Positions 5,450 to 51,177 of a DNA stretch of 64,000 nucleotides are shown here, piece by piece. A program made the translations under genes and the position numbers. Below the pieces are notes generated by a model. It was not told the origin of the DNA. It was given only the letters and a program-made list of their open reading frames with translations, and did no database searches. Every line of letters starts with the position of its first letter. Position 1 is the first letter of the stretch. This stretch comes from Ostreococcus lucimarinus (lineage: Eukaryota), in NCBI GenBank assembly GCA_000092065.1, contig CP000594.1, one strand, 5' to 3'.

Positions 5450-5657
5450 ATCCAAACCATGGTCTTTTTGGTGTCTTGTTGAGTCTTCATATTGCAAATG
5501 TACGAATCACAAAATTAGTATGAACACCAGACGACCGCCGGCGCGAGCTCCGTCTCCCCCGTTTACCCATTGTCCTTCAGCCACTCGAAGCACCCGTCGC
5601 GGTCAATTTCCCAATAGACGCCATTCTCGTCCCTAGCTTGCCTCAGGTGGTCCTCTT

Positions 5658-5841
5658 AATACACCAAAAAGTAAATGCAATTATGGTGTTTCATTATTCC
5701 ATACGAGTACCCCAGAACGACGAGTCGTGACCCATACGGTAAAAATATCACGTCCCGCCGGTCCGGTCCCCATAGTATATAGAATTTATACAATTCAGCC
5801 CGCGTCATTACGGGGGTACAGTAATCTATGTGTCCGACATT
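5658..5841 (+). repeat. Intergenic module R1, copy a
   Basis: CCAAAAAGTAAATGCA...TTTCATTATTCCATACGAGTAC...GACGAGTCGTGACCCATACGGTAAAAATATCACGTCCCGCCGGTCCGGTCCCCATAGTATA...GTACAGTAATCT. It recurs at 19862-20125 (same orientation) and 36231-36410 (inverted), with a partial copy at 51131-51177. Confidence 0.7.
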
Positions 5842-5868
5842 AAACTCGATTTTTGCTAGGGTTTAGCG
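5842..5868 (+). promoter_or_regulatory. Conserved 27-nt 5' motif AAACTCGATTTTTGCTAGGGTTTAGCG (contains a telo-box-like AAACCCTA core)
   Basis: Identical 27-mer at 36494-36520 (+) and 19754-19780 (-), each immediately upstream of and oriented toward a large gene. Confidence 0.6.
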
Positions 5869-5889
5869 TCCCCGGTGTCCCGCGCGCGC

Positions 5890-8800: not shown

Positions 8801-11800
8801 GTAGCGCGTCCTCGTTCAATCAAAACATTGGGTCGTGGAACACAGGCAGTGTGACGGATATGAGCGGTATGTTCATGAATGCATCTGCGTTTAACCAGCC
8901 CGTTGGTGACTGGAACACAGGCAGCGTCGTGGATATGAGCGGCATGTTTGAGAGCGTGTCTGCGTTTAACCAGCCCATTGGTGAGTGGAATACCGGAAGA
9001 GTCACCAATATGAAAGAAATGTTTTCGCAGGCGTCTGAATTCAATCAGAATATCGGTAATTGGGATACATCGAGTGTGACGACGATGGATACTATGTTTC
9101 GCTACACCGAGTCCTTTAACCAGCCCATTAGTGAGTGGAATACCGGAAGAGTCACCAATATGAAAGACATGTTTTCGCATGCGTACGCATTCAATCATTC
9201 AATCGGTGACTGGAACACGGGTGCCGTGGAGAATATGGAGCTTATGTTCCAAAATACCGGCGTTTTCAACCAGGACATCAGCAGTTGGAACACGGCGGCG
9301 GTGACTCAGATGGACTCAATGTTTTACGGTGCTTCAGCCTTCAATTATGACATCACTGGTTGGAGTTCAGCAAGCCTTACGTCGTCGGCGAGCATGTTTC
9401 TCGACGCGCCGGCTTGGCTGGCGAGGTACAAGAACACCGTCGCCTCTGGTAGCAAAAATGGGCCATCGTCGAACTGGCTCGGTCCCGGTCCGTTCACGAC
9501 CAAGTCGGCGTTGGAGACCGCTACATGGAACTGCTTGGCGGGGAGCGCCGATGCCGATGGCAACTGCGACTGTACGACCGTCGATTGTGGCGCGGCGGTG
9601 TATGAATCGATTTCGAACTGGAACACGAGTTTGATCACGGACATGACCGGTTTGTTTGAAGGTAAGTCTTCATTCAACGCGAATATCGGCGGATGGAACA
9701 CGGGGAGCGTCACAAACATGCACCAGATGTTTAACGGCGCGACTGCTTTCAACCAAGACATCGGTTCTTGGGATGTCTCGGATGTAGCGGACATGTATCA
9801 AATGTTCGGTAGCGCGTCGTCGTTCAATCAAAACATTGGGTCGTGGAACACAGGCAGTGTGACGGATATGAGCGGTATGTTCATGAATGCATCTGCGTTT
9901 AACCAGCCCGTTGGTGACTGGAACACAGGCAGCGTCGTGGATATGAGCGGCATGTTTGAGAGCGTGTCTGCGTTTAACCAGCCCATTGGTGAGTGGAACA
10001 CAGGTAGCGTGGCGGATATGAACGGTATGTTCAGGAGCGCATCCGCGTTTAACGAGCCCGTTGGTGCATGGAACACAGGCAGCGTGACGGATATGAGCGG
10101 CATGTTTGAGAGCGTGTCTGCGTTTAACCAGCCCATTGGTGAGTGGAACACAGGTAGCGTGGCGGATATGAACGGTATGTTCAGGAGCGCATCCGCGTTT
10201 AACCAGCCGATTGGTGAGTGGGCCACAGGAAGCGTGGCGGATATGAGCGGCATGTTTGAGAGTGCATCCGCGTTTAACCAGCCGATTGGTGAGTGGGACA
10301 CAGACAGCGTGACGGATATGAGCAGCATGTTTGAGAGCGCGTCTGAATTCAATTATAACATCACTGATTGGAGTTCAGCTAGTCTCACGACGGACATGTT
10401 TCTCGATGCGACAGCTTGGCTGGGAAGATTTGCACGCAAAGATGGCGAAGACACCACTGATGGCCCACCATCCAAGTGGGGCGAACCGTGTGGCAATGAG
10501 TGGTACGATGCGACCTTTGAGGAGAAGTGTGAGCCAAGAGTGAACGGGATTGAAGTGAAAGGATGCAATTCTACGTGCGGGATAAAAGACAACTGGCGGT
10601 GCGACAATTTCGACTTGCTACGCCCCCCCGGTGATGACTTAGATAGCTACAATTGTACGTGCGACAACCCGGCGGGCACGTACGCATCGCCTGATCTTGA
10701 TTGTGCTCGCACAGATTGCATTTACGGCGAGCGGTGTCTCGCTAACGGCCTAGGCTGTGCGCCCGGTGCCGGTGGAAACGCATGCGACCGGTGTTTGACG
10801 GCCGCTGATATTGCCGAGCTTCCACTCAACGAACGAAGTCTCAGCAAGAATGGCTATTACAAGACTGGGCAGATGTGCACGGCTTGTCCAGAGACATCGG
10901 CTGGTCAACTTTTCGCTGCGGCTGCGGTTGTCGTCGTCCTCGCTTTTTGTGGTTTCAAAGCCTCTCAATTGATGGGCGCTCAAGCGACGAACAATTTGAA
11001 GAAAATTGTCGAGTCGCTGCAGTTCTTCTCTCTTTCGCTCAGTATGAGTATCAAGTGGCCTGGACCCGTACTCAATCTCGGTAAATATTTGGAAGCTTTC
11101 ACGTTCAGTATTGAGTTTCTACGACCCGAATGCGTCGCTACGGGGCTGAATTGGCTCAATATATTTTTGTCCTCAGTGTTTTTCGTTCCCGCTCTCATCT
11201 TCATAATCATCGTCGTGAACAATAGACGGGCGAAGCACCGTTACAAAACAACGGTGCGCGCGATCGACAGTGAACGACACGAGGATGGCGAAACAGTCTA
11301 CTGGATCAAGAAACCAGGTTTCTTGTGGGGTACGCGGAGAGCTTACGAGTCCAAGGGTGGAGATAAGATTGTTCGCGAGTTGCAGCGCCAGTATCGGTTT
11401 CGAGCCGCGCTTCGATCTTTCGGCGTACTGTCGCTGACCGTCCTATACCTTCCCATCGTGCGTATGTGCCTTCAGTCATACGATTGCATAAAGATAGACG
11501 GCGTGGATGGGCTTCGATTGGAGCATGACATAGATATCCTCTGTGAAAGCGAAGGGCACGTGATCATCCAGGCCGCCGCCGCGGTGATGTTGGCCATTGT
11601 CGGTATCGGCATGCCAATTTACGTCATAATGCAAGTTCGTAAGATCCGTTTGAGCGGTAAACTGGATGATCCACAGACTATCGACTCGTATGGTCCGTTC
11701 TACGACGTCTACCGGCGCGAGGAGCTCACACACGATCACAAATTGGAGATTGCGAGCATTCGACAAACCGCGGTCGAGTCGTCCTCATTTCGACGAGGCG

Positions 11801-12597
11801 AAGGCACGAGCGACGAACGTCCTTTCGATGCAGCAACTGATGATATTGCAGAAGAAATCGCAAATGAAGCCAGGGTCGATACGGAAGAAGATTCAAGCGA
11901 CGTTGATCGTGTTGACGTCGAGGACGATAGTGATACTCCACCACCTCAGAAAGTTGCATCCGGTCTCGGTAAGCTCGCTCGGGCGTTAACGATGACGAAG
12001 TCTGCTTTAGGCCGGACGACGTCAGCGAAAGCGCGCGAACGGGCACATCGAATGCACTGGAAGGACAGGTTCGCGCTTCACTACCTGGCCGTTGAACTAG
12101 TGCAGAAGAGTTGCGTCATTTTGACGACGTCTCCGCTAGTGGCCGAAACCGCGGTGAGCGGTTGGGCTCTGGTTGTCGTACACTGGTTTACCGGCGCCTT
12201 CGTCTACGTGTGTCAGCCTTGGCGCATCATGACGCTCGGCTTCGGCAAATACAAGGTGCGAAATTGCTTAAACAAAGTCGAGTCCTTGGCTGGATTTTTG
12301 CAGGGCGTGGGACCGTTCTTGGCGATGATCTTCCCTGTTCAGAGAAACGAGTTGGGCGAGGTGAAGCAAACTGTGACACTCTCAGCCATAACTGTCCTGC
12401 TGACCATCATAATCACCGGGCTGCTTTCTATTCGTATCATTGTTTTCGTCGGCGAACGCGTCGCCGTCAAACGAAAGAAGATGGACATTGACAAGGATCC
12501 CGAGAAATGCATGCAAAATGTTCACAAACAACTGGTCAAGCTCGCAACCAACAGAGCGATTGTGAGCATGTTGCTTTCAAGGCAGATTTCGACATAA
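5890..12597 (+). CDS. Large DUF285/BspA-like leucine-rich-repeat surface protein with Cys-rich stalk and C-terminal multi-pass TM region (~2,236 aa)
   Basis: 6.7-kb uninterrupted frame.
- It holds dozens of ~25-aa units of the type FN(Q/A)xIxxWNTxxVTxMxxMF.
- A hydrophobic segment MLFATATWMLLLLTSFVDG lies at 6367.
- A Cys-rich region lies at about 10.5-10.9 kb, followed by about 7-9 hydrophobic helices.
- The start is uncertain: an in-frame ATG at 5890 lies 22 nt after the 27-nt motif, and 6367 is the alternative. Confidence 0.85.
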   Translation: MRWRRRHSSTPRPAVVRVHTVQVVPLDDERALVHPCADEVRFHRASPPFGPLRATVAQPGDLRADGAMPAYASQGVHTGGTAPFATYRAAQHAFATPDGMHWRGGRSVSLKIARSTSGQSGSLAPQRVLNTILVLFGYSPRDLDTREGSRRASVRCQKNMLFATATWMLLLLTSFVDGAIVDRDALKVAVDNCLAANATGNCDCSSDSVDCGTAGSLPISQWDTSRVNDMNRLFSNQGSFNANISAWDVSGVTDMTRMFEGANSFAQDISSWNVVNVTSMDTMFYRADAFNAPIGSWNTDGVTNMFQMFHSAHLFDQPIGSWNTERVTTMQCMFMYAREFNQDISSWNTANVVNMWDMFYSADAFNQNIGSWNTEEVTDMRYMFYSADAFNQNIGSWNTEKVTDLSGMFQGAAAFNQDIGSWNTEEVTDMSGMFQGAAAFNQDIGSWTTTSVKNMESMFEDATAFNQNISSWNVSAVTDFDRMFYTATAFNKGIITTKTTWTGATGASATDMFSAATAWLQRYEYTTNPSGSVVNGPASAWSVKKCSSNQYVLSNTCKACASGKFRSAGDDPDGSNTACTYASPFASNTQLKDTIESSYCLGGSDATGANCTDGKGMYIAQWDTSLITDMNHLFYNKISFDANISTWNTAKVTKMDSMFSQARAFNQRINEWNTSSVVTMEAMFRYAESFDQPIGEWNTGRVTNMKDMFSQASEFNQNIGNWDTSSVTTMDTMFRYTESFNQPISEWNTGRVTNMKDMFSHAYAFNHSIGDWNTGAVENMELMFQNTGVFNQDISSWNTAAVTQMDSMFYGASAFNYDITGWSSASLTSSTDMFLSATAWLARYKNTASPGSKNGPSSNWLGPGPFTTKSALETATWNCLAGSADADGNCDCTTVDCGAAVYESISNWNTSLITDMTGLFEGKSSFNANIGGWNTGSVTNMHQMFNGATAFNQDIGSWDVSDVADMYQMFGSASSFNQNIGSWNTGSVTDMSGMFMNASAFNQPVGDWNTGSVVDMSGMFESVSAFNQPIGEWNTGRVTNMKEMFSQASEFNQNIGNWDTSSVTTMDTMFRYTESFNQPISEWNTGRVTNMKDMFSHAYAFNHSIGDWNTGAVENMELMFQNTGVFNQDISSWNTAAVTQMDSMFYGASAFNYDITGWSSASLTSSASMFLDAPAWLARYKNTVASGSKNGPSSNWLGPGPFTTKSALETATWNCLAGSADADGNCDCTTVDCGAAVYESISNWNTSLITDMTGLFEGKSSFNANIGGWNTGSVTNMHQMFNGATAFNQDIGSWDVSDVADMYQMFGSASSFNQNIGSWNTGSVTDMSGMFMNASAFNQPVGDWNTGSVVDMSGMFESVSAFNQPIGEWNTGSVADMNGMFRSASAFNEPVGAWNTGSVTDMSGMFESVSAFNQPIGEWNTGSVADMNGMFRSASAFNQPIGEWATGSVADMSGMFESASAFNQPIGEWDTDSVTDMSSMFESASEFNYNITDWSSASLTTDMFLDATAWLGRFARKDGEDTTDGPPSKWGEPCGNEWYDATFEEKCEPRVNGIEVKGCNSTCGIKDNWRCDNFDLLRPPGDDLDSYNCTCDNPAGTYASPDLDCARTDCIYGERCLANGLGCAPGAGGNACDRCLTAADIAELPLNERSLSKNGYYKTGQMCTACPETSAGQLFAAAAVVVVLAFCGFKASQLMGAQATNNLKKIVESLQFFSLSLSMSIKWPGPVLNLGKYLEAFTFSIEFLRPECVATGLNWLNIFLSSVFFVPALIFIIIVVNNRRAKHRYKTTVRAIDSERHEDGETVYWIKKPGFLWGTRRAYESKGGDKIVRELQRQYRFRAALRSFGVLSLTVLYLPIVRMCLQSYDCIKIDGVDGLRLEHDIDILCESEGHVIIQAAAAVMLAIVGIGMPIYVIMQVRKIRLSGKLDDPQTIDSYGPFYDVYRREELTHDHKLEIASIRQTAVESSSFRRGEGTSDERPFDAATDDIAEEIANEARVDTEEDSSDVDRVDVEDDSDTPPPQKVASGLGKLARALTMTKSALGRTTSAKARERAHRMHWKDRFALHYLAVELVQKSCVILTTSPLVAETAVSGWALVVVHWFTGAFVYVCQPWRIMTLGFGKYKVRNCLNKVESLAGFLQGVGPFLAMIFPVQRNELGEVKQTVTLSAITVLLTIIITGLLSIRIIVFVGERVAVKRKKMDIDKDPEKCMQNVHKQLVKLATNRAIVSMLLSRQIST
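7963..9978 (+). repeat. Near-identical 2 x 1,008-bp in-frame tandem duplication inside the DUF285 gene
   Basis: The unit starts with CAGCCCATTGGTGAGTGGAATACCGGAAGAG at 7963 and 8971. Track ORFs repeat at exactly +1,008 bp (8321/9329, 8337/9345, 8190/9198). Confidence 0.95.
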
Positions 12598-18695: not shown

Positions 18696-19691
18696 TTAAC
18701 TCCCCGTGCTTGCCTCGTCCAAATTGGCATCGCCCATGCGCCGTCGAAGCGAAGACGTGTCATCTCCCGAACCACTGAGCGCCTTTAGCGCGCCCTCTAC
18801 GCCACGAAGCGCGCTGTAAAGAAGGTCTTGGGCGCCAACTTTGTTGTACCAATCTTGGAAGCTTTTGCACGCACAAAATTGCTTCTCAGGTCCCCATTCA
18901 GGCTGCCACTTTGGTACGTTACACTGACCATAACCATCATAGTTAACGTATCCATCAACGCTGAGGTTACTGCCATCGCAGCCAATGACACCCACAGGAT
19001 GAACAATGAAGCTACTTGAGCCACTTCGGTGGCCAACATACTGGGGTGGACATGACCCATAATTCCCACGATAATTCCACAGTGTGAGCCTCTGTTGTTC
19101 CATTTTCGCCTCGTAGCTGCGCAACGCATCGCTCAACTCCTCGAGGTTGCGTTCCAAAGATACACTAGTCCTTTTTCTTTTGTGTTGCTGGAGTTGTTCA
19201 GAGGCGTGTTCTTTTATGTCGGCAATTTTATCGGGCAAGCCTTTCAAATCTGCGATAACCGCATCCACATCGGCGCACATCGCGTTCAATGAATTGTCTT
19301 TCTCTTTTAATTTCGCACGAGTGTCCTCGATGTGCTGCGGGATAACCGACCGTCGCGTTTCGGAGATATTCTCGTCTTGTAGCTGCGCTTCCAGAACTCG
19401 GATATCTTTATCGATGCGCTCTACGGTGCGAAGATAACTCGCCCGTAAGAGGCGCTTGAACTCCTCGAGGCCGTCGGGCGTCGGTTTGTCATACTCGTCT
19501 CGTGATCTGGCGAATTTCTCGTAGCATGGGTCCTTGAAGAATGGCTTGTTCTTGTACGAGCGCTCGAGATCATCCTCCGCTGTTTTGACCGCCTCTGACT
19601 CCGCCGTGCCGTTCATCCAGTCCGGTTGCAGCGACGGGTCTAATGAGTTCGTTCTCCATGTCGGTGAGGCGTGCGCGACTGAATCGGTCAT
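18696..19691 (-). CDS. Coiled-coil protein with Cys-containing C-terminal domain, unknown function (331 aa from the first ATG)
   Basis: The track ORF 18696-19769 starts at a non-ATG codon inside the conserved 5' motif. The first ATG (MTDSVAHASP...) is at 19691, 62 nt after the motif. Confidence 0.6.
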   Translation of the reverse strand: MTDSVAHASPTWRTNSLDPSLQPDWMNGTAESEAVKTAEDDLERSYKNKPFFKDPCYEKFARSRDEYDKPTPDGLEEFKRLLRASYLRTVERIDKDIRVLEAQLQDENISETRRSVIPQHIEDTRAKLKEKDNSLNAMCADVDAVIADLKGLPDKIADIKEHASEQLQQHKRKRTSVSLERNLEELSDALRSYEAKMEQQRLTLWNYRGNYGSCPPQYVGHRSGSSSFIVHPVGVIGCDGSNLSVDGYVNYDGYGQCNVPKWQPEWGPEKQFCACKSFQDWYNKVGAQDLLYSALRGVEGALKALSGSGDDTSSLRRRMGDANLDEASTGS

Positions 19692-19719
19692 CGCGTGCGT
19701 CGATGAGTGGCGCCGACAC

Positions 19720-19751
<32 letters not shown>

Positions 19752-19753
19752 GC

Positions 19754-19780
<27 letters not shown>
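19754..19780 (-). promoter_or_regulatory. Conserved 27-nt 5' motif (reverse-strand copy)
   Basis: CGCTAAACCCTAGCAAAAATCGAGTTT is the exact reverse complement of the 27-mer at 5842 and 36494. The following leader resembles that of the 36586 gene up to the ATG. Confidence 0.6.
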
Positions 19781-19786
<6 letters not shown>

Positions 19787-19835
19787 TTGTCGATTTTTAA
19801 CACGTTTACAGTGGAACCTCTGCGGTTTTTGACGC

Positions 19836-19861
19836 CTAAACCCTAATTTCTAAACCCTAAT
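19836..19861. repeat. Two interstitial plant-type telomere-like units (CTAAACCCTAA x2)
   Basis: CTAAACCCTAATTTCTAAACCCTAAT lies directly adjacent to module R1 copy b. Confidence 0.6.
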
Positions 19862-20125
19862 GTGTAAATACGAGTACGACGTTTCATTAACCCATACGAG
19901 TACCCCCGAACGACGAGTCGTGACTCATACGGTAAAAATATCACGTCCCGCCGGTCCGGTCCCCATATACTATGGAATTTATGCTATTCAGCCCGCGCAA
20001 ACAGTCGGGTAGATTACTGTACAGTAATCTACCCGTATCTTACTGTACAGTAATCTGTGCGCGGAATCAGTAATCTGTACCCGGAATGACGCGGGATGTG
20101 GCGTAATCTATACCCGACATCCCGT
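19862..20125 (+). repeat. Intergenic module R1, copy b, with an expanded right part containing a 30-bp perfect palindrome
   Basis: The core matches 5690-5841. The right part holds four GTAATCT-containing units. CGGGTAGATTACTGTACAGTAATCTACCCG at 20006-20035 equals its own reverse complement. Confidence 0.65.
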
Positions 20126-36150: not shown

Positions 36151-36230
36151 TATATAGCACTTTGGGAGGTTAAAAGGTGTCCCAAAGTCTCATACATTGG
36201 CCTATACTTTGGCAACATCCCGCGCTTTGA
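36151..36230 (+). repeat. Intergenic module R2, copy a (TATATAGC followed by a hairpin)
   Basis: TATATAGCACTTTGGGAGGTTAAAAGGTGTCCCAAAGT...ATCCCGCGCTTTGA. The 9-bp stem is ACTTTGGGA/TCCCAAAGT. An 80-bp homologue lies at 48791-48870. Confidence 0.6.
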
Positions 36231-36410
36231 TTACAGTACAGTAATATAACCCCCGCCAATGCGCGGGATGAATGGCATACATTCCATAGTATATGGGGAC
36301 CGGACCGGCGGGACGTGTGATTTTTACCGTATGGGTCACGACTCGTCATTCGGAGTACTCGTATGGAATAATGAAACACCATAACTGCATTTACTTTTTG
36401 GTTCATTAAA
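36231..36410 (-). repeat. Intergenic module R1, copy c (inverted relative to copies a and b)
   Basis: Its reverse complement aligns with 5658-5830 (CCAAAAAGTAAATGCAGTTATGGTGTTTCATTATTCCATACGAGTAC...CCGCCGGTCCGGTCCCCATA...). Confidence 0.65.
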
Positions 36411-36493
36411 AAAACCGTACGGGCATTTACTGCAGAATTGGCCACTTTTCGCGCGGGTTTCACTGGACACGTGTCAAAAACGTGGCTTTTCTG

Positions 36494-36520
36494 AAACTCG
36501 ATTTTTGCTAGGGTTTAGCG
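36494..36520 (+). promoter_or_regulatory. Conserved 27-nt 5' motif, third copy
   Basis: Exact AAACTCGATTTTTGCTAGGGTTTAGCG, 65 nt upstream of the ATG at 36586. Confidence 0.6.
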
Positions 36521-36585
36521 TCTCAGTGTCCCGACGGAGATACAGTGCGGGGATCCCGTCGGCAGCACTCTCCGTCGCGCACGCA

Positions 36586-39500
36586 ATGTCGAAGAAATCT
36601 GATCCACTGTATGTACCAGTCAACACGTGTGAAGACGACACAGTCGGTCTTCTTCGGACGATCGATGAAGTTCAAGTAGACGAGGGTGAAACCAACGTTA
36701 CTTCGCCCGAAGATAATAATTGTGACGGCGGCGTTCGAGTAGTAGACATGGTTGGGTTGATACGGAACGGGCTGCATGCGCGGAGGTGCGCGAGCAGACG
36801 ACGGTCCACCGCGATCATCCACGTTTTGTTAACTGTCGTTCTGGCAAGTTTTTTGCGTTCGACCTTGGCGTTTGAAAGGACAGATGGGTTTCAAGGCGAG
36901 CTTGAAGATACCGCACACGAAGGACCGGGAGCATCAAGGAGTTCGGTGGCGAACGAAACCGCGGCGCTGGGGTGTGCATGGGGGATACCTTGTCCGCCAG
37001 TGGCTCAGGCGGTGGTGGATGTCGTGTCAGATCCACATGGTGCTGCCGAAGATGCTGCGAACCTGGCTGGAGATGGACTCAATAGTGCTGTAGATGCAGC
37101 AGCGGCTGGGGCAACATTTTTGTACGATCAAGGGACGGCAGCCGCGAGCGCAGCAGCGGCAGCGGCGACAGAGTTGGCGTCGGCTGGATTTGAATTCGCC
37201 AAGGGTGCGGCCACAAGCGCATACGCGATGGGTTGCTCCGCGGCGGCGATGGCTTGGAACACGGCGACGGCGGTCTATGACCGTATGAGCGACCCAGAAA
37301 AATTTTTGTCAGACATGATTGACAGCTTTCCCACATCTTTGGGGGATTTGAAGTCGCTTTCGGGCAAGGCACTCGCAGTCGGTGGAGAAGCCTTCGTGGA
37401 GATGAATGCGAATAATCCCGTTGGACGCCAAGCGCTCGCTGCTGTCAAAAAGGCAAACGAAATCGGCGGCAAGTACGGTTTCGAGAACCTTCAGAAATTC
37501 ACCGCTGTGGGCGCGTCGTTGACGAATCGCGTTATCCCCGGCGGTGGCATAATTTTTGAAGCCGTGGACGTCGTCGGTGAAACGGCGCAAGATGCTGTGG
37601 ATACTGCGATTCTCATCGTGGAGTCTATGCTCAACGCTCTTGAGTGCAAAGTGTCGCCAGTCGATGTTATGGAGGTGATACAAAAAGTTGTCATCGAACA
37701 AATATCAAGCTGGAATGCGTTTGCGAAAATGTTCGAGGAGAAGAAGGGGACTGACTTCTTCTACAAACTCGATCATGTCATCTGCAATACTCTTTGGACA
37801 GTGGCTATGCCGCATGCGGACTTGATGGTGACGGCGATTGGCGTCCTCCTGGAAAAAGTCCAAGCCACTTGTCCAGGAGTTATCCCAGCGGATTCCAAAC
37901 CAGCAGCTACGCTGGGGTTGATTTTTGACGCGTCTGTAAAAGGGGGCTCAATGAAAGGTGTATCTGCTGAGGTTGGCATCGGTGCTGACATTGATGGGAA
38001 CAAATTTTGCTATTTCGGCTCCTGCGCTTACGCAGGTATATCGTTTGGTGGCTACGGTGCTGATGGGACGATGTTGGCGGGACTCAGTGTTTGGAAGTCT
38101 ATGGATTCAGTTCCGGGCACCTCGAGTACATTTGCGTTCGCGGCCGATATCACCATGCCATTACTCCCCTCGTTTGATCCCGGAGTCACGTTCGTTTCAA
38201 ACGACGCCGGGCTCATCGGCATCAGTGTCTCAAAAGAAATCCCCGGCGGCGACGAACCAAGTGGTGAATTTTCGGTCACGAAAGGGCGATGCGTAACGCC
38301 TGTTTGTGTCAAGACAGATGGTAATCCTTGTGGTGAGGGTCAGGCTGCTTGGTCCGACGTGGGCTCGCATGCGACTGCTGCAGTGGAGGCGATCAAGACG
38401 GATGAGTGCATAGTTGCTGGTGCCGGTGTGATTGAACAAAATGGTGGAATTTCCGTGAGTCGAGAAATCCGGTTACCGGCGTCTGGGGTGAACCTTCTTG
38501 CCGATGCTGAGGCAAACCCGACGGGAATGAAGAATTTTAAGCCCTCAAGCGTGAGGATTCCTGAGGGTAAATTCTTACTTGCGTTTACCGGTGGTGATGA
38601 AGCATTTAAGGGGAGCGAGACAGTGATTCGTAGCTATAAGTCAAAACTCAACAACCGTTTGTATTCAATGACGTCCTTTGTCGTTTCTGACATTGCAGCC
38701 GAGTTTCACGAAGAAGCGCCAAAATCAGTTGGCCCAGAACATGCTGGTTCAATCAGTAAATGTAAAGCGATGTGCGCGGTGAAGAAACACTGCTGCAATA
38801 CGGATGAATCCATCGGAAGTAACCAGTATCTAAGCTGCCTACAGGCATGCGTCGTCCGCGTGCGTGGAACCGACGAGCGGACATGTAACTCTTACTGTGC
38901 ATCTGCAACGACTTCTCGTCACATTAATGGTTACATGTACAACCTCGCAACATCTTGCGCTGATGTCGTTGCATCCGAAGGAAAGTTATGTTCTACTCGG
39001 TACGGTAGCGATCGTTCAACCTGCCTATACGGTTGTTCGATCGGACGCGACCCCGAACAATCGCTCGCAGTCGTCAAATCCACTGGATTCTATATGCAAC
39101 TTCCTGCGGCACATGTTACCCCCAGGTCGACGAATAATTTGCGCGATCGGACGTTGAGTAGTGTGATTGTTCGAGCCGGGTTTGTTGTTAAACTGTACGC
39201 CGGGCGCGACCTGAAAGGTCAATACCTGACGCTCGGGAGTTCGGCGACGCTGTATGGTAACCATGCGAGGTTCTATTCATCCTTACGCGGATCATTCCCG
39301 AACACGAAGTTTGCCTGGGCAAATTTCAATGACAGAACTCGGAGCATCGCCATCTTGGAGGCGCCTGTGACGCTTTATACGCAACCCAATTTCCATGGCG
39401 ATCATGAATCAAAACTTGAGCATGCATTTGACTACACCAGTCTCGGTCCGACAGTCGGGGACAGGCATGTTAATTCCATCTTTCTAAGAGAAGGATCTGT

Positions 39501-42500
39501 GGTTGAAGTATACGAGGGACGCAGTTTCAACGGTCGAGGCATGCAGTTCATATCCAGCGTATCAGATGTCCGCCGCGCAACTGAATCCATCGGTGACCTT
39601 TCTAGACCGACATGGCAAAGAGTTTATGGAACTGCAAGTATGGTTGACGCGGGTCGTGAAGAAGTATATAGTATTCACGCAGATGACGTCGCAAATACAA
39701 AGCCAGTTGATAATTCTGGTGACTGGTCGGACTTTTTGACACTGAAGTGGAGTCATATTTCTGTTGGGCCCACAGGCCATGTATGGGCGATTCGTAAACC
39801 TTACGGCAACGCTTATCACTGCATGCCACATCAAACCTCTTGCAAGACCAAATGGGAGTATACCAGGCTCACCCAGCTGGATGCTGGAAGTTTGTACGTT
39901 TGGGGGGTGACGTACTCGGGATACGTATACAGGCATCTCGTGAACACACACGAGGGTTCATGGACACGTGTAAATGCGCCAGATACGATGAAGCATATCT
40001 CAATAGGCCCAAGTGGCGATGTCTGGGCGGTATCGACGACGAATAAAGTATATTTCTGCGTGCATCCGTGTACTGGATCGTGGCGTGTCATCGGCGCATC
40101 CGCACCCGTAAAACGTCTCATATTTACTGTGAACAATGACAAATATATGGCTCGTGTCGATTTGAAGACTGACGGTAGTATTAATTTCAACGCTGGTCAT
40201 AAAGTAGCTGGCTGGTTGAGTCTAAGCGGAATCACGTACGCCACGAGCGGTCTCAACTATCTTTCCCTAAACTCGCGTTATTGGGAACATTATAGTGGCA
40301 TGAATGGCTACTGGTCGCCAGCCCAATACTCGTGCTCGAACGGCCTCGTTTCTGTGACTGGGCTCGTGAAGACAAAAAATCATGGCTGGGGGCAGGTCAT
40401 CGGTACTCTCCCGTCAGGGTGTCGTCCGACGAAAGCACTCATCTTCACCACGAATAACCACGATGAGCAGGCGCGAGTGAACGTATACGCCGACGGGACG
40501 ATCAAATGGGGTGCCGGCGGCAAGGGTCACGGATGGTTGAGCCTAAGTAACATTGTCTTTTCGACCAGTGGCAACGCGCTTTTACCTCTGAGCAATGGTT
40601 GGGCGCACTACAGTGGCACGAGTGGCTACTGGTCGCCTGCTGAGTACTCGTGCGCCGACGGCCTCGTGGTCTTGAGTGGATTAGTACGCGGTAGTAACTG
40701 GGGTTCTACTATCGGCACTCTTCCTCCGGGTTGTCGTCCGAAACAAGCTCTCATCTTCACCACGAACAACAGCGATAAGCAAGCGCGAGTGAACGTGTCA
40801 CCGGGGGGGGTGATCAAATGGTCACGTGGTGGCAAGGGCCACGGTTGGTTGAGCCTGAGCGGCATCGTATTTGCAATGACTGGGCTGCAGTTGATGCCTC
40901 TGAGCAACGGTTGGAAGTACTATAACGGCGCGAGAACGAGCGGGTATTGGGCACCCGCACAGGTCGCGTCTGTGCGCGGCCTCACCGTTGCTCAAGGCCT
41001 TATCAAAGGCGGTGGATGGGGTGGAACAATGGCAAAAATTACCGGTGGATGCGGATATATGAGTGATTTAATGTCCCTGACTAAGAAGAACGCGGGTCAA
41101 CATAGCACAGCACATAATGGCGTTGCAAGCCGCCCGTTGACGTCGACTCCAAATGGGCGCTGGGGGGGTGGCACGTGCACGCACACGAATCATGCGTCCG
41201 ACCCATGGTGGCGACTTGATATGGGGACGACGAGGACCTTGAGTTCGGTGGAGTTGTTGAATCGCAACGACTGCTGCAGTGACCGCTTTATCGGCCTCCG
41301 CGTCTACATCAGCAATCATAACTCCTACGTAAAGGATCATCCGAGTAACAAACAGTGCGGGCAGACGTTGGGATCGCCGAATACTGCCTGGAATATATTC
41401 GACTGCGGCGATGCCATCTCTGGGCGCTACGTATACGCCACCCTATATGGTAAAGCAGCACCGTTAACTATCTGCGGTGTCAGGATGTTCGAATCAAATA
41501 CGATGATAAAGCAGCTGGACGTTGGAAAGCGCTATGTTTACGGAACCAGTACGAATGGTCATCTTTTTAAAATCCGTGCCGATGGGGGCGAGGATAACTG
41601 GTCCCTCGTACATCGTTATAGCGAATTCGGCGGTATTGATGCCAATTATGTTTCAGTCTCACCGCATTCCGAACAATCGTCGTTCCTGTGGGTTACAAAC
41701 CAAGCGAACGAAATTTATCGCCAATCCATCGGAATACAAATCTCTTCCATGAGAGTCGCCTCGGCAATCGTAACTGCTTACAAAGGTGTGGGATTTACCG
41801 GTGATAGTCTGCCCCTGACTTCCGGTTTTTATAACTTTAAGACGCTCGAGGCAGACTCAGACGCCGGATTTAAGCTCACGAACCTCAGAGCGTTTGTGCG
41901 AAGCATCAAGTCTATAAGGATCCATCCAGACTACGAGGTTGAGCTGCGCGGTTATAATCAAGCACGAGCAGTCGTCACCTCTAGTACAATGGGAGTACAC
42001 GATTTTCATAAACTGGACACAGAGGGCAAGGAACACGAAGAGAATATAGTTGGAGCTACAAGATTTCCGCGACCGAGCGGTGTCTCACGCAAATCGACGT
42101 TTATGCCAATCGAAGCAACTACGCTAGGAACATGGATCCAAACACGAACTGCCAACGTTTACGTGATGTCAGATCTATCAGCCACCCCAAGTGCTCTCAT
42201 TAGGTACATTGCTGCGTACGGCGATGCAGAATATTGCAAAATGATCATGTTTCACGTGCGTCACGGCGATGAAGTCTCTGTTGTGCCTGAGGAGGCTGGA
42301 TATGCGACTTTTGGCATCAGAGATGCGTCTTCCGACAAGTGTCAGAATCGCGACGGTGTACTATCGCTCTGGCGTATAAAGCAAACTCCGAGATTGGCGC
42401 GCCGCGCGACAGATGCAGGCTACGGCATCGGAAAGTTGAAATTCTCGATTTTGGGAGGCTGGACGGGAGAAATAGCCTCAATGAAAGTGATGAGAAAACT

Positions 42501-42996
42501 CACTTATGTCCAAGGGTACTCCGGTGGCCGTCATCGTAATGAGGGAGGAAATCCAAAACGGACTCCACGAGAATGTCGGGACATCGCTAAAAGCAAGGGT
42601 TTACCTGCCTGGGGATTTCGAACCGGCCGTCATAATGATCCTAACTGGCGGTTTACGTGCTTCTTTTATGAGCACGGATTTGGGAGATTTGCGGGTAATG
42701 ATGACACAATGCATATGACAGGATGCGTCGATATATCCCGAAAGACCGCAAATGGCTGCGCACTGAGCGCATCAGCCAGCGCGCGGTTGGGTTCTGAAGA
42801 CTTAGAGACTTACCCTCGCGCGATGGCGAGACCAAAGGCGAGACTGCTAGAATCAGACTGGTACTATATCTCTGTCTGCTGTGTTCTCGTCAGCCTAGCG
42901 TCTGTGGTAGCGTTCGTCGCATTTCGACGCTCGCGAACGTCGGGCAAACGCATTCTACTTGAACGAGTCTCAACGAACTACGGTGCCACAATTTAA
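36586..42996 (+). CDS. Large membrane-anchored lectin-like protein, 2,136 aa (beta/gamma-crystallin-like, tectonin-like, three ~105-aa repeats, F-type (fucolectin-like) lectin domain, C-terminal TM)
   Basis: Uninterrupted ORF whose first ATG is MSKKSDPLY.
- The F-type-lectin-like signature is HTNHASDPWWRLDMG...VELLNRNDCCSDRF.
- Tectonin-like units include HISVGPTGHVWAI, YVWGVTYSGYVYRH and HISIGPSGDVWAV.
- Crystallin-like Greek-key patterns include VTLYTQPNFHG and VVEVYEGRSFNG.
- TM segments are AIIHVLLTVVLASFL and VCCVLVSLASVVAFVAF. Confidence 0.85.
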   Translation: MSKKSDPLYVPVNTCEDDTVGLLRTIDEVQVDEGETNVTSPEDNNCDGGVRVVDMVGLIRNGLHARRCASRRRSTAIIHVLLTVVLASFLRSTLAFERTDGFQGELEDTAHEGPGASRSSVANETAALGCAWGIPCPPVAQAVVDVVSDPHGAAEDAANLAGDGLNSAVDAAAAGATFLYDQGTAAASAAAAAATELASAGFEFAKGAATSAYAMGCSAAAMAWNTATAVYDRMSDPEKFLSDMIDSFPTSLGDLKSLSGKALAVGGEAFVEMNANNPVGRQALAAVKKANEIGGKYGFENLQKFTAVGASLTNRVIPGGGIIFEAVDVVGETAQDAVDTAILIVESMLNALECKVSPVDVMEVIQKVVIEQISSWNAFAKMFEEKKGTDFFYKLDHVICNTLWTVAMPHADLMVTAIGVLLEKVQATCPGVIPADSKPAATLGLIFDASVKGGSMKGVSAEVGIGADIDGNKFCYFGSCAYAGISFGGYGADGTMLAGLSVWKSMDSVPGTSSTFAFAADITMPLLPSFDPGVTFVSNDAGLIGISVSKEIPGGDEPSGEFSVTKGRCVTPVCVKTDGNPCGEGQAAWSDVGSHATAAVEAIKTDECIVAGAGVIEQNGGISVSREIRLPASGVNLLADAEANPTGMKNFKPSSVRIPEGKFLLAFTGGDEAFKGSETVIRSYKSKLNNRLYSMTSFVVSDIAAEFHEEAPKSVGPEHAGSISKCKAMCAVKKHCCNTDESIGSNQYLSCLQACVVRVRGTDERTCNSYCASATTSRHINGYMYNLATSCADVVASEGKLCSTRYGSDRSTCLYGCSIGRDPEQSLAVVKSTGFYMQLPAAHVTPRSTNNLRDRTLSSVIVRAGFVVKLYAGRDLKGQYLTLGSSATLYGNHARFYSSLRGSFPNTKFAWANFNDRTRSIAILEAPVTLYTQPNFHGDHESKLEHAFDYTSLGPTVGDRHVNSIFLREGSVVEVYEGRSFNGRGMQFISSVSDVRRATESIGDLSRPTWQRVYGTASMVDAGREEVYSIHADDVANTKPVDNSGDWSDFLTLKWSHISVGPTGHVWAIRKPYGNAYHCMPHQTSCKTKWEYTRLTQLDAGSLYVWGVTYSGYVYRHLVNTHEGSWTRVNAPDTMKHISIGPSGDVWAVSTTNKVYFCVHPCTGSWRVIGASAPVKRLIFTVNNDKYMARVDLKTDGSINFNAGHKVAGWLSLSGITYATSGLNYLSLNSRYWEHYSGMNGYWSPAQYSCSNGLVSVTGLVKTKNHGWGQVIGTLPSGCRPTKALIFTTNNHDEQARVNVYADGTIKWGAGGKGHGWLSLSNIVFSTSGNALLPLSNGWAHYSGTSGYWSPAEYSCADGLVVLSGLVRGSNWGSTIGTLPPGCRPKQALIFTTNNSDKQARVNVSPGGVIKWSRGGKGHGWLSLSGIVFAMTGLQLMPLSNGWKYYNGARTSGYWAPAQVASVRGLTVAQGLIKGGGWGGTMAKITGGCGYMSDLMSLTKKNAGQHSTAHNGVASRPLTSTPNGRWGGGTCTHTNHASDPWWRLDMGTTRTLSSVELLNRNDCCSDRFIGLRVYISNHNSYVKDHPSNKQCGQTLGSPNTAWNIFDCGDAISGRYVYATLYGKAAPLTICGVRMFESNTMIKQLDVGKRYVYGTSTNGHLFKIRADGGEDNWSLVHRYSEFGGIDANYVSVSPHSEQSSFLWVTNQANEIYRQSIGIQISSMRVASAIVTAYKGVGFTGDSLPLTSGFYNFKTLEADSDAGFKLTNLRAFVRSIKSIRIHPDYEVELRGYNQARAVVTSSTMGVHDFHKLDTEGKEHEENIVGATRFPRPSGVSRKSTFMPIEATTLGTWIQTRTANVYVMSDLSATPSALIRYIAAYGDAEYCKMIMFHVRHGDEVSVVPEEAGYATFGIRDASSDKCQNRDGVLSLWRIKQTPRLARRATDAGYGIGKLKFSILGGWTGEIASMKVMRKLTYVQGYSGGRHRNEGGNPKRTPRECRDIAKSKGLPAWGFRTGRHNDPNWRFTCFFYEHGFGRFAGNDDTMHMTGCVDISRKTANGCALSASASARLGSEDLETYPRAMARPKARLLESDWYYISVCCVLVSLASVVAFVAFRRSRTSGKRILLERVSTNYGATI

Positions 42997-44075: not shown

Positions 44076-44244
44076 TTGTCCTGGTTACCTATCTATCCCT
44101 AAGAAAATATTGTTGCCTCCTCCTGCGGTTTGCAGTCACATTCGAGAGACCATAGGTACTCGTGTCGCTGCGTGGGGTGCAAGGTCCGGGATGTAGATAT
44201 CGAACCGCCCGATTTCACACCTGGACGTTCGTGATCCGTCGAGA

Positions 44245-44435: not shown

Positions 44436-44500
44436 ATCCAAACCATGGTCTTTTTGGTGTCTTGTTGAGTCTTCATATTGCAAATGTACGAATTACAAAA

Positions 44501-48779: not shown

Positions 48780-48790
48780 TTCGGTTGGGC

Positions 48791-50968: not shown

Positions 50969-51130
50969 AGTTTGTTCCTTTAGTCGAGCGTCGGATTGTG
51001 GCGAAACGGCGGGTGCCCTCGGTCGGTCGGACGGACTTTCGCGGTCGGTCGGACGAGGGGCCCGTTGGCGCCCCGCGGGTGTGTGTACCAGCCCTTAGGG
51101 TTTAATGTATATTAATGTATTTATGGGTAT

Positions 51131-51177
51131 CATCCCGCGCAATTCGAGGGGTAGATTACTGTACTGTACAGTAACCC
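51131..51177 (+). repeat. Partial R1-type module (right part only) at the compositional boundary
   Basis: CATCCCGCGCAATTCGAGGGGTAGATTACTGTACTGTACAGTAACCC, preceded by CTTAGGGTTTA at about 51093. Confidence 0.5.

What the first reader, a model, noticed from the sequence alone, without database searches (positions are those of the whole stretch)
36494..36585. Identical 27-nt telo-box-containing motif plus related leader at the 5' ends of three otherwise unrelated genes
AAACTCGATTTTTGCTAGGGTTTAGCG occurs three times without a mismatch: 5842-5868 (+), 36494-36520 (+) and 19754-19780 (-). Each copy points into a large ORF, namely the DUF285 receptor-like gene, the lectin-like gene and a coiled-coil gene.
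- In two cases the ATG follows after 62-65 nt, and the leaders are alike up to the start (GTCGGCAGCACTCTCCGTCGCGCACGCAATG against GTCGGCGCCACTCATCGACGCACGCGATG).
- In the third, an in-frame ATG lies 22 nt after the motif.
- Module R1 lies upstream of all three, in either orientation.
- The motif embeds AAACCCTA.

Established knowledge: in plants, the telo-box AAACCCTA(A) is a promoter element bound by TRB-type proteins.

Inference: this is a shared promoter or 5'-UTR cassette that co-regulates a set of accessory-region genes, or one spread by recombination.
Basis: partly seen in the sequence, partly recalled or inferred. Interest (0 to 1): 0.5.

Follow-up and report, generated by a model that had tools for sequence, protein, structure and literature searches.

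The report
Dispersed telo-box promoter-leader cassette, Ostreococcus
The identical 27-base motif is the best-conserved core of a roughly 150-base upstream cassette (about 400 bases with its R1 module) that sits, pointing into the gene and ending at or near the start codon, in front of dozens of unrelated and mostly strain-specific genes in wild Ostreococcus, so it is most likely a shared promoter/leader module that recombination moves between genes.

Summary
The 27-mer occurs exactly three times; no further copy exists within 3 mismatches and none appeared in 100 shuffles. Each copy points into an ORF, with R1 upstream.

The window is Ostreococcus lucimarinus CCE9901. All three copies lie in a 51-kb low-GC, transposon-rich island.

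The 27-mer is not a stand-alone element. It is the core of a cassette of about 150 nt:
- Its 21-nt core occurs in 97 marine metagenome contigs, upstream of at least 35-40 unrelated genes.
- 30 of 54 non-redundant copies are followed within 20-135 nt by an ORF of at least 100 codons, against 9.7% at random positions.
- The cassette consensus ends in an ATG.
- The 27-mer is the most constrained block (93% against 73-80% in the flanks); TAGGGTTTAG is the invariant part.

I found no conserved RNA structure, no Rfam family, no transposon protein and no viral copy.

At one locus the same cassette precedes two unrelated coding sequences, with homology ending at the ATG. This shows recombination-driven promoter/CDS swapping.

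The O. tauri orthologue of the coiled-coil gene lacks the motif, so the cassette is lineage-specific.

Promoter function and co-regulation remain inferred. The plant telo-box/TRB model does not transfer. I class it as a new variant of a known kind, of moderate interest.

The parts
36494..36520 (+). 27-mer core, copy 3. It contains CGATTTTTG (the inverted CAAAAATCG box) and the telo-box TAGGGTTTAG, with an internal imperfect inverted repeat AAACTC...GGGTTT.
   Evidence: Exact match. It is the most conserved block of the cassette family. Hairpin pairing is seen only within the 27-mer.
36448..36590 (+). Full cassette in front of the lectin-like gene: upstream CAAAAACG box, 27-mer, 65-nt leader, and the terminal ATG at 36586.
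   Evidence: nhmmer with the cassette profile, E=3e-29. blastn depth profile.
36230..36419 (+). R1 module, in the same orientation as the cassette.
   Evidence: nhmmer R1 profile. Inverted-repeat pairs I4-I6. Alignment A3.
36586..42996 (+). Downstream gene: 2136-aa Tectonin / F5-8 type C (discoidin) lectin-like protein, XP_001421296.1.
19754..19780 (-). 27-mer core, copy 2.
19687..19826 (-). Full cassette in front of the 331-aa coiled-coil-family gene. The terminal ATG is at 19691.
   Evidence: nhmmer E=1e-34.
19830..19859 (-). Two extra telo-boxes (TTAGGGTTTAGAAATTAGGGTTTAGG) between R1 and the cassette.
   Evidence: The same pair is present in 10 of 60 non-redundant cassettes.
19857..20028 (-). 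R1 module, in the same orientation as the cassette. Its outer end runs into the 28-nt perfect palindrome at 20007-20034.
18696..19691 (-). Downstream gene: 331-aa protein of the family that most often carries the cassette. Its own ancestral 5' end appears to be the cassette's 3' box.
5842..5868 (+). 27-mer core, copy 1.
5808..5934 (+). Cassette in front of the DUF285 gene, a subtype with the GCGCGCATGCG leader. The ATG at 5890 lies inside the conserved leader, so the true start may instead be 6091.
   Evidence: nhmmer E=8e-20. The same leader with an internal ATG is non-initiating in L068. ORF table.
5646..5830 (-). R1 module, inverted relative to the cassette.
5890..12597 (+). Downstream gene: DUF285-repeat giant surface-type protein.
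51109..51168 (-). Partial R1 (outer part), with a telo-box at 51096, at the border between the low-GC island and the normal-GC region.
   Evidence: (D16).

Best explanation
**What it is.** The 27-mer is the constrained core of a lineage-specific, multi-copy promoter-proximal/5'-leader cassette of Ostreococcus lucimarinus-type genomes. A full unit reads, in order:
- an optional R1 module (about 190 nt);
- zero or two telo-boxes;
- one or two CAAAAAYCG boxes;
- the 27-mer (an inverted CAAAAATCG box plus the telo-box TAGGGTTTAG);
- a 50-110-nt leader with the conserved blocks GGGCAGATCGCGTCGTCG and CCACTYGTCGMCGC;
- an ATG.

**Shown**
- The cassette is dispersed in front of dozens of unrelated genes.
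- It always reads into the gene.
- It ends at or near the start codon.
- The 27-mer, and above all TAGGGTTTAG, is much better conserved than its flanks.
- Cassette copies recombine with each other, so the same cassette can precede different coding sequences at one locus.

**Inferred**
- The cassette supplies transcription initiation and the 5' UTR, and often the start codon.
- The 27-mer is a composite DNA site for sequence-specific factors, probably Myb-type telomere-repeat binders. This would give a subset of accessory genes, many of them surface proteins, a common regulatory input.
- Because its invariant blocks are the only long identical stretches between copies, the cassette also acts as a landing pad for ectopic homologous recombination. 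That recombination swaps or recruits coding sequences behind a ready-made promoter.
- The cassette probably arose from the upstream region of the coiled-coil gene family. The short leader end of that family (GTCGACGC..GCGATG) is already present in O. tauri and in more distant homologues.
For: - **Copy number and diversity.** The 21-nt core is present in 97 metagenome contigs. They give 108 occurrences, about 60 non-redundant copies, at least 40 unrelated downstream sequence clusters and 35 protein families.
- **Diverged copies.** A further 40 copies were found with a profile.
- **Gene-start association.** 30/54 copies have an ORF of at least 100 codons starting 20-135 nt downstream, and 42/54 within 300 nt. 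The figure is 9.7% at random positions and 5/38 on the opposite side.
- **Terminal ATG.** The cassette consensus ends in GCGATG. In 15 of 50 cases that ATG (within 5 nt) opens the long ORF.
- **Sharp 3' edge.** Homology depth falls sharply at the ATG in the window copies.
- **Constraint.** In copies that lack the exact core, the 27-mer is 92.6% identical to consensus, against 73-80% for the flanks. In the cassettes seen in loci reached through proteins rather than through the motif, TAGGGTTTAG reads intact in each, while the left half of the 27-mer varies (by eye).
- **Paralogue comparison.** The window copy and the L001-type locus share 27/27 bases in the motif. The leader is about 72% identical and the upstream 100 nt are essentially unalignable, while the CDS is 87-89% identical.
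- **Recombination.**
  - A cassette of about 215 nt is 96-100% identical in front of an alpha/beta-hydrolase CDS and an aspartyl-protease CDS at the same locus, with homology ending at the ATG.
  - The L121 allele replaces the 27-mer plus leader.
  - L013 and L118 show breakpoints inside the leader.
- **Not RNA, transposon or virus.**
  - There is no consensus RNA fold and no covariation.
  - There is no Rfam hit.
  - None of the 20 downstream families scanned has a reverse transcriptase, integrase or transposase domain.
  - There are 0 viral contigs with the 21-mer, and one chance 18-mer match.
- **Relic mini-genes.** These read cassette, ATG, a few codons, then a gene 3' end carrying TGTAA. 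They fit transcription running from the cassette into the gene. That UGUAA is the green-algal polyadenylation signal is my own knowledge.
Against: - **No expression evidence.** No transcript, TSS or expression data could be reached, so 'promoter', '5' UTR' and 'co-regulation' are all inferences.
- **Ascertainment bias.** The metagenome set was collected with the exact 21-mer, which biases conservation estimates. I partly corrected for this with profile-found and protein-ascertained copies.
- **Shallow conservation.**
  - The O. tauri orthologue (82% identical) and an O. tauri-like contig lack the 27-mer and the telo-box.
  - One close paralogue keeps only a duplicated telo-box and the leader.
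- **Orphan copies.** About a quarter of copies have no obvious ORF downstream.
- **Only a subset of genes.** In one 12.6-kb low-GC stretch, only one of about ten genes carries a full cassette.
- **Length of the invariant block.** A block of 25-27 nt is longer than a typical transcription-factor site.
- **Non-independent ATG depletion.** The depletion of ATG in the leader is not independent evidence, because the copies are homologous.
Confidence: 0.6

Rival explanations
1. A neutral or selfish dispersed repeat (a MITE-like or mosaic intergenic module) with no regulatory role. On this reading it sits upstream of genes only because compact Ostreococcus genomes tolerate insertions nowhere else, and because it is co-duplicated with neighbouring genes.
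For: - The intergenic regions of the island are mosaics of several short repeated modules: R1, palindromic TTACTGTACAGTAA arrays, a GGGGCCCGTTGGCGCC module, and telo-box pairs by ferritin.
- R1 copies are highly similar to one another in different contexts (A3).
- Copies sit in transposon-rich low-GC DNA.
- Some cassettes are orphan or truncated.
- The cassette is absent from the O. tauri orthologue.
Against: - There is a strong orientation bias and a fixed relation to start codons.
- The 27-mer is far better conserved than the flanks although the copies are old enough to differ by 20-27% elsewhere.
- I saw no terminal inverted repeats by eye and could define no target-site duplication.
- No associated transposase or reverse transcriptase was found.
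Confidence: 0.2
2. The 27-mer is primarily a recombination signal: a site at which a nuclease or recombinase (for example the GIY-YIG enzyme of the neighbouring mobile element) or the general homologous-recombination machinery exchanges gene cassettes. Promoter function would then be secondary.
For: - Visible breakpoints recur at the edges of the invariant block (AAAC|TCGA, after GGGTTTAG) and at the ATG.
- Alternative coding sequences follow the same cassette.
- All three window copies lie next to copies of a TIR element that encodes PrimPol-helicase and GIY-YIG proteins.
- The 27-mer has an imperfect internal inverted repeat.
Against: - Breakpoints at the edges of the only perfectly identical stretch are what ordinary homologous recombination between diverged repeats would leave.
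- The inverted repeat is only 6 nt long with one mismatch.
- Most cassette contigs carry no such element.
- A recombination signal does not explain the orientation toward genes or the terminal ATG.
Confidence: 0.12
3. An RNA-level element. The 27-mer lies inside the 5' UTR and acts on the mRNA, through translation control, stability, or as a target of a small RNA or an RNA-binding protein.
For: - ATG is the rarest of seven same-composition trinucleotides from -160 to the start codon (13 against 21-74).
- The block length of 25-27 nt resembles a nucleic-acid-guided target.
- The AAACUC/GGGUUU hairpin is the only consensus pairing found.
- In plants, telo-boxes lie mainly in 5' UTRs (PMC3022908).
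Against: - There is no covariation and almost no folding energy: -3.2 kcal/mol for the alignment of 40 leaders.
- The ATG depletion is inherited with the repeat, so it is not independent evidence.
- The TSS is unknown.
Confidence: 0.08

Closest known systems
Plant telo-box (short interstitial telomere motif AAACCCTA) promoter / 5'-UTR element
   Same: - It has the same 8-10-nt sequence, identical to the organism's own telomere unit. The O. lucimarinus telomere motif is CCCTAAA (PMC8287931, Table 1).
- It lies promoter-proximally, tens of nt upstream of the ATG. In plants telo-boxes lie mainly in the 5' UTR, from -60 to +140 of the TSS (PMC3022908, PMC2576244).
- It is sometimes present in clusters of two or three.
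   Different: - It is embedded in a 27-nt invariant block and a homologous cassette of 150-400 nt. It is not an isolated short motif in otherwise unrelated promoters.
- The site II partner motif is not enriched.
- The downstream genes are accessory or surface genes, not the translation apparatus.
- TRB binders arose only in streptophytes (PMC10167121).
Promoters spread by repeats (solo LTRs, MITEs and other transposon-derived promoters)
   Same: A multi-copy homologous sequence supplies a ready-made upstream region to unrelated genes. It is found in transposon-rich DNA.
   Different: - I saw no terminal inverted repeats by eye, could define no target-site duplication, and found no element-encoded protein.
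- The 3' end coincides with the start codon.
- Spread appears to go through homologous recombination between copies rather than transposition.
Conserved upstream (ups) sequences of variant multigene families such as Plasmodium var (comparison from my own knowledge)
   Same: Conserved 5' flanks occur in recombination-prone, hypervariable and partly subtelomeric compartments. In O. tauri the coiled-coil orthologue lies 2.66 kb from a telomere. Ectopic recombination occurs between members.
   Different: Here the genes behind the conserved flank are unrelated to each other. There is no evidence of mutually exclusive expression.
Shared promoter motifs directly upstream of many ORFs in giant viruses and linear plasmids, such as the EhV-86 family of repeats or the mimivirus AAAATTGA motif (from my own knowledge)
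   Same: One sequence sits a short, nearly fixed distance before the ATG of many unrelated ORFs within one genomic compartment.
   Different: - This is a nuclear algal genome.
- The conserved unit is much longer.
- The 21-mer is absent from 2.9 million viral contigs.
Integron platform (common promoter plus recombination site that captures gene cassettes); a functional analogy only
   Same: Different coding sequences are found behind the same promoter-bearing sequence at one locus.
   Different: There is no integrase and no attC-like site on the captured genes. The system is eukaryotic, and the exchange is explained by homology.

Membership tests
Plant-type telo-box promoter element | Contains AAACCCTA(A), identical to the species' telomere repeat. 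| tested here: met
   All three copies carry TAGGGTTTAG. The telomere motif CCCTAAA is given for O. lucimarinus in PMC8287931, and (CCCTAAA)n caps O. tauri chromosome 9.
Plant-type telo-box promoter element | Lies within about -60 to +140 of the transcription start site, mostly in the 5' UTR. | not testable with these tools
   No TSS or transcript data were reachable. The position 62-110 nt before the ATG is compatible.
Plant-type telo-box promoter element | Topological association with site II (TGGGCY) or TEF boxes. | tested here: not met
   Site II is present in 4/60 cassettes, against 13.9 expected from shuffles. The TEF box was not scored.
Plant-type telo-box promoter element | Drives genes of the translation apparatus or cycling cells. 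| tested here: not met
   The downstream genes are DUF285, a lectin, an LHC-like protein, an ankyrin protein, an Asp protease, a DnaJ-ferredoxin protein, a weak sub-threshold methyltransferase match, and many with no Pfam hit.
Plant-type telo-box promoter element | Bound by TRB (Myb plus H1/H5) proteins. | not testable with these tools
   According to PMC10167121, TRBs first evolved in Klebsormidiophyceae, so a different Myb-type binder would be needed in a chlorophyte.
LTR / solo-LTR | Full-length copies flank gag-pol, with reverse transcriptase or integrase downstream of some copies. | tested here: not met
   None of the 20 downstream protein families scanned has an RT, integrase or transposase domain. 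The two cassettes flanking the gene in L117 are of different subtypes.
MITE / TIR transposon | Terminal inverted repeats and target-site duplications at the ends of the unit. | tested here: inconclusive
   By eye, the ends of the composite (ATTACTGTACAGTAATC... and ...CCACTCGTCGACGC..ATG) are not complementary. No target-site duplication could be defined, because no clean empty site was found.
Structured non-coding RNA / known RNA family | A conserved secondary structure with covariation, or a match to an Rfam model. | tested here: not met
   There is no Rfam hit at gathering threshold in the window. RNAalifold on 40 leaders gave -3.2 kcal/mol and 0 compensatory pairs. R1 gave -25.6 kcal/mol, but only 1 of 28 pairs covaries.
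Telomerase RNA template | A single-copy gene with a type-3 pol III promoter, a C-strand template, and a pseudoknot. | tested here: not met
   The reverse complement CTAAACCCTAG resembles a template, but the sequence is present in dozens of copies upstream of protein-coding genes.
Viral (prasinovirus or other) promoter or integrated virus | The same sequence is present in viral genomes. | tested here: not met
   0 of 2.9 million IMG/VR contigs carry the 21-mer. The single 18-mer hit has unrelated flanks.

The most novel reading that the evidence does not exclude
The cassette would be an 'expression adaptor' for the flexible genome of Ostreococcus. It would be a portable promoter, leader and start-codon unit whose invariant 27-mer serves two roles. 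It would be the binding site of a dedicated regulator. It would also be the homology patch through which ectopic recombination plugs new or shuffled accessory genes (surface proteins, candidate virus-interaction genes) into one common regulatory programme. Functionally this would be a eukaryotic, homology-driven counterpart of an integron platform or an expression site.
Probability: 0.15. Interest if true: 0.8.

Novelty: new variant of a known kind. Interest (0 to 1): 0.55.

Why it matters
- **An open regulatory question.** Low-GC outlier regions of Mamiellales are hypervariable, highly expressed and linked to virus resistance (PMC5082852, PMC13390643, bioRxiv 10.1101/2025.04.21.649811). How their genes are controlled, and how genes move in and out, is not known.
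- **A testable handle.** A defined, mutable 27-nt core shared by dozens of accessory genes gives a concrete reagent: reporter assays, pull-down of the binding factor, and expression clustering.
- **A possible mechanism for gene turnover.** The alternative coding sequences behind one cassette give a candidate mechanism, namely non-allelic recombination at promoter cassettes.
- **Evolutionary reach of telomere-like promoter motifs.** The finding also shows a telomere-like motif in a promoter-proximal position in a chlorophyte that, according to the literature, lacks the plant TRB family.
- **If the cassette is inert.** It would then be an ordinary dispersed repeat, of interest only for assembly and annotation.

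Tried and rejected
- **Chance.** Rejected: 0 of 100 shuffles gave any match.
- **Subtelomeric copy in L053.** The telomere repeats there are interstitial (3.5 units with unique sequence on both sides), not a chromosome end.
- **Telomerase RNA template.** Rejected on copy number.
- **Known RNA family or structured leader.** No Rfam hit and no covariation.
- **Viral origin.** No 21-mer in IMG/VR. The one 18-mer hit is a chance match in an unrelated AT-rich contig.
- **LTR or transposon-internal promoter.** No RT, integrase or transposase domain downstream.
- **Plant telo-box module with site II.** Not met.
- **TATA box.** Not enriched: 10/60 against 8.3 expected.
- **Transcript evidence.**
  - No poly(A)-tailed contig exists among the loci.
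  - Look-ups of the coiled-coil protein returned only metagenome contigs.
  - Contigs that start about 5 nt before the 27-mer are multi-gene DNA contigs, so they mark assembly breaks at the repeat, not start sites.
- **Automated search for homology ends at the ATG.** The search over all pairs was too noisy to use. It was replaced by measuring the profile end against the ORF start and by one clean locus.
- **N-terminal membrane anchors.** Present in 8 of 21 downstream families. This is suggestive only.
- **Position of the window on the chromosome.** This could not be obtained; the CCE9901 assembly is not in the gene-position index.
- **Literature.** No paper holds the motif string. The outlier-chromosome papers I read do not mention such a cassette.
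Full report
**Observation**

The 27-mer AAACTCGATTTTTGCTAGGGTTTAGCG occurs at 5842-5868 (+), 19754-19780 (-) and 36494-36520 (+).
- There is no other match, even with three mismatches, and none in 100 dinucleotide-preserving shuffles.
- Each copy points into an ORF.
- The downstream genes are a DUF285-repeat protein, a Tectonin / F5-8 type C protein, and a 331-aa protein without Pfam hits.
- Module R1 is upstream of all three: twice in the orientation of the motif and once inverted.

**Context**

Exact protein look-ups identify the window as Ostreococcus lucimarinus CCE9901, on a 708,927-bp chromosome. The lectin-like ORF from ATG 36586 is XP_001421296.1.
- Positions 1 to about 51,100 form a low-GC island: 51.6% GC against 60.4% for the rest.
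- The island holds three giant surface-type genes: DUF285 (2235 aa), TSP1 plus DUF285 (5156 aa), and the lectin (2136 aa).
- It also holds several copies or fragments of a mobile element with PrimPol/D5-like helicase and GIY-YIG genes.

**The motif is the core of a larger, widely dispersed cassette**

An exact scan for the inner 21 nt found no viral contig and 97 marine metagenome contigs.
- Together with the window, these give 108 occurrences and about 60 non-redundant copies (below 90% identity over -120..+140).
- They fall into at least 40 unrelated downstream sequence clusters, 32 upstream clusters and 35 downstream protein families.
- The alignment shows conserved sequence well beyond the 27-mer. 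Upstream lie one or two CAAAAAYCG boxes and TTTCTRAAAC.
- Downstream lies a leader with the blocks CTCCGGTTTTCCG, GGGCAGATCGCGTCGTCG and CCACTYGTCGMCGC. The consensus ends in GCGATG.
- In 14 of 60 copies, one or two further telo-boxes (TAGGGTTTAGAAATTAGGGTTTAG) lie about 60-75 nt upstream. The coiled-coil copy of the window is one of them.
- R1 (about 190 nt) lies upstream in the same orientation at a fixed offset in 41 of 74 R1 matches.
- blastn depth along the three window copies shows three tiers:
  - R1, at about 30-48 hits;
  - the core cassette, at more than 100 hits;
  - a sharp fall within 10-20 nt of the ATG.

**Association with gene starts**

- Of 54 non-redundant copies with enough downstream sequence, 30 have an ORF of at least 100 codons whose first ATG lies 20-135 nt after the 27-mer. 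42 have one within 300 nt.
- The same test at 20,000 random positions and strands of the same contigs gives 9.7%. On the opposite side of the cassette it gives 5 of 38.
- Measured from the end of the profile match, 50 of 74 unique cassettes are followed by a long ORF. In 15 of these 50, the ORF opens with the cassette's own terminal ATG (within 5 nt).
- Two further clusters, at about 95 and about 170-190 nt, belong to a subtype in which that ATG opens a short conserved mini-ORF.

The genes are heterogeneous:
- an LHC-like chlorophyll a/b protein;
- an ankyrin protein;
- a TAXi-type aspartyl protease;
- a DnaJ-ferredoxin protein;
- a protein with a weak, sub-threshold methyltransferase match;
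- many families with no Pfam hit.

Only one of ten tested proteins has a cluster mate at 90% or more in the CCE9901 proteome (ABO98646.1, on a 593,542-bp chromosome). Most are therefore strain-variable accessory genes.

Cassette contigs have a median GC of 52.8%, like the island. The cassette also occurs in other settings:
- next to core-type genes in low-GC DNA;
- flanking a single low-GC gene inside a normal 60-72% GC chromosome segment.

It is not upstream of every low-GC gene: only one of about ten in a 12.6-kb stretch carries it.

**Constraint**

A profile search found 40 more copies that lack the exact 21-mer. That sample is biased against motif conservation.
- Even so, the 27-mer is 92.6% identical to consensus, against 75% (upstream 40 nt), 73% and 80% (the two leader segments).
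- In the cassettes I read in loci reached through proteins rather than the motif (L098, L117, L127), TAGGGTTTAG is intact in each, while the left half varies (by eye).
- Between the window's coiled-coil locus and its L001-type relative:
  - the CDS is 87-89% identical;
  - the leader is about 72% identical;
  - the upstream 100 nt are barely alignable;
  - the 27-mer is 27/27.

The cassette copies are therefore old enough to have diverged by 20-27% around a block that has not changed.

**What it is not**

- **A known or structured RNA.** No Rfam family reaches threshold anywhere in the window.
  - RNAalifold on 40 leaders gives -3.2 kcal/mol and no compensatory pair.
  - The only pairing is AAACUC/GGGUUU inside the 27-mer, which at DNA level is an imperfect inverted repeat.
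  - R1 can fold (-25.6 kcal/mol), but only 1 of 28 pairs covaries.
- **A transposon-internal or LTR promoter.** No downstream family has a reverse transcriptase, integrase or transposase domain.
- **A telomerase RNA template.** Copy number excludes this.
- **A chromosome end in L053.** The telomere repeats beside that copy are interstitial.
- **Viral.** The single viral 18-mer match is a chance hit.

**Recombination**

L117 is 21 kb of a 582,632-nt contig with normal GC. A low-GC coiled-coil-family gene there is flanked by two cassettes of different subtype.
- The second cassette, about 215 nt long, is 96-100% identical in contigs where it precedes an alpha/beta-hydrolase CDS (L117-L120) and contigs where it precedes a TAXi aspartyl-protease CDS (L004, L033, L070, L018).
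- The upstream gene is shared at 96-97% identity. Homology stops at the ATG (alignment A4).
- Allele L121 keeps the cassette up to TTTTCTAGAAC. It then replaces the 27-mer plus leader (102 nt) with 269 nt of GC-rich sequence and rejoins at GCGATG.
- L118 differs from L117 upstream of a breakpoint in the leader of cassette 1.
- L013 joins the DUF285-type cassette to other sequence at the CCACTC box.
- Visible junctions recur at the edges of the invariant blocks. That is what homologous exchange between diverged repeats would leave.
- Relic mini-genes also occur: cassette, ATG, a few codons, then a gene 3' end with TGTAA.

**Evolutionary depth**

The coiled-coil family is the commonest cassette partner.
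- Its O. tauri orthologue (P0349, 82% identical) lies 2.66 kb from the telomere of chromosome 9 (CAID01000009.2, 713,054 bp).
- That orthologue has no 27-mer or telo-box, but keeps GTCGACGCACGCGATG directly before the ATG.
- More distant homologues (64% and 44% identical) also have GTCGAC...GATG or CACTCGTC...GCGATG there.
- A close paralogue (87% identical) has a duplicated telo-box plus leader but no left half of the 27-mer.

I infer that the 3' box of the cassette is the ancestral leader of this gene family. I also infer that the telo-box-bearing cassette arose in the O. lucimarinus lineage and spread from there.

**Comparison with known systems**

The core is a telo-box in sequence and in promoter-proximal position. 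In plants these lie mostly in 5' UTRs, from -60 to +140 of the TSS (PMC3022908, PMC2576244). It differs from the plant element in three ways:
- the plant partner motif site II is depleted (4/60 against 13.9 expected);
- the genes are not translation-related;
- TRB proteins arose only in streptophytes (PMC10167121).

The nearest functional analogies are repeat-borne promoters, conserved upstream regions of recombining gene families, shared promoter motifs of giant viruses, and integron platforms. None fits as a family.

No paper in the library holds the motif string. The outlier-chromosome papers I read do not describe such a cassette.

**Verdict**

- **Solid:** the structural finding. This is a dispersed, oriented cassette that abuts the ATG, with a constrained 27-nt telo-box core, shuffled between genes by recombination.
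- **Best-supported but untested:** its role as promoter/leader and as a shared regulatory input.
- **Scores:** new variant of a known kind; interest 0.55.

Noticed in passing
window 27-5516, 15162-18558, 43389-47116; L098 177-10488: A mobile element of about 10.3 kb bounded by 87-nt terminal inverted repeats. The repeats are window D10 (4335-4488 and 43389-43476) and L098 177-263 / 10354-10488. The element encodes 602-aa and 490-aa proteins without Pfam hits, a 736-aa PrimPol plus DUF5906 (D5-like) helicase, and a 269-aa protein that UniRef names GIY-YIG domain-containing. Several 97%-identical copies or fragments lie in the island, and the element sits in different contexts in metagenomes.
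   Followed up: partly
window 1-51100: A low-GC (51.6%) island inside a chromosome of about 60% GC. It carries three giant surface-type genes: DUF285 (2235 aa), TSP1 plus DUF285 (5156 aa, at 20438-35908), and a tectonin/discoidin lectin. This is content typical of Mamiellales outlier chromosomes, here on a 708,927-bp chromosome.
   Followed up: partly
window 20007-20034; L099 7323-7508: A 28-nt perfect palindrome, GGGTAGATTACTGTACAGTAATCTACCC, sits at the outer end of R1. In L099, arrays of TTACTGTACAGTAA build a palindrome of about 190 nt at the left side of the PrimPol element. The outer 65 nt of R1 often occurs as inverted pairs.
   Followed up: partly
window 51050-51170; L099 7170-7215; L013 1-140: Another short repeated module (GGGGYCCGTTGGCRCCCCGCGGGTGTGTGT) lies next to a partial R1 and a telo-box, exactly at the border of the low-GC island. 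The same pairing occurs at the edge of the mobile element in other contigs.
   Followed up: no
window 47181-47321 and 48868-49008; 48652-48780: The ferritin gene (47685-48542) is flanked by 141-nt direct repeats (90% identical). It is followed by an inverted pair of telo-boxes (AAACCCTAG...CCTAGGGTTTAG) and a third telo-box. Ferritin lies next to cassette-bearing DNA in other contigs too (L091, L135-L136).
   Followed up: partly
L117 9600-13500 vs L004, L018, L033, L070, L121: A hypervariable locus in a normal-GC chromosome. The same upstream gene and cassette are followed by either an alpha/beta-hydrolase or an aspartyl-protease CDS. A third allele lacks the 27-mer and leader.
   Followed up: yes
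L123 1-3700 (O. tauri chromosome 9 end): The O. tauri orthologue of the coiled-coil gene is subtelomeric, 2.66 kb from (CCCTAAA)n. Its upstream region has three CGATTACAC repeats instead of the cassette.
   Followed up: partly
L063, L111-L116: A 274-aa LHC-like chlorophyll a/b-binding gene carries the cassette. It has no close named relative: the next clusters are 42-58% identical, including Bathycoccus. It appears to be an accessory light-harvesting-like gene of wild Ostreococcus.
   Followed up: partly
L016, L040, L047, L071, L084; L127 5055-5190; L012, L018, L019, L117 9905-10000: Two conserved short reading frames are attached to cassettes. One is a frame of about 33 codons starting 6 nt after the 25-mer in the 'ATTATCG' variant, ending with TGTAA signals; it is probably a relic of an internally deleted gene. 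The other is an MLFTLNL-type mini-ORF opened by the cassette's terminal ATG, ahead of the main ORF.
   Followed up: no
window 24551-25773 and 6727-10372: There are long in-frame tandem repeats inside the giant genes: 114 nt x 6 at 98-99% identity, 162 nt x 3, and the 75/150-nt DUF285 periodicity.
   Followed up: no
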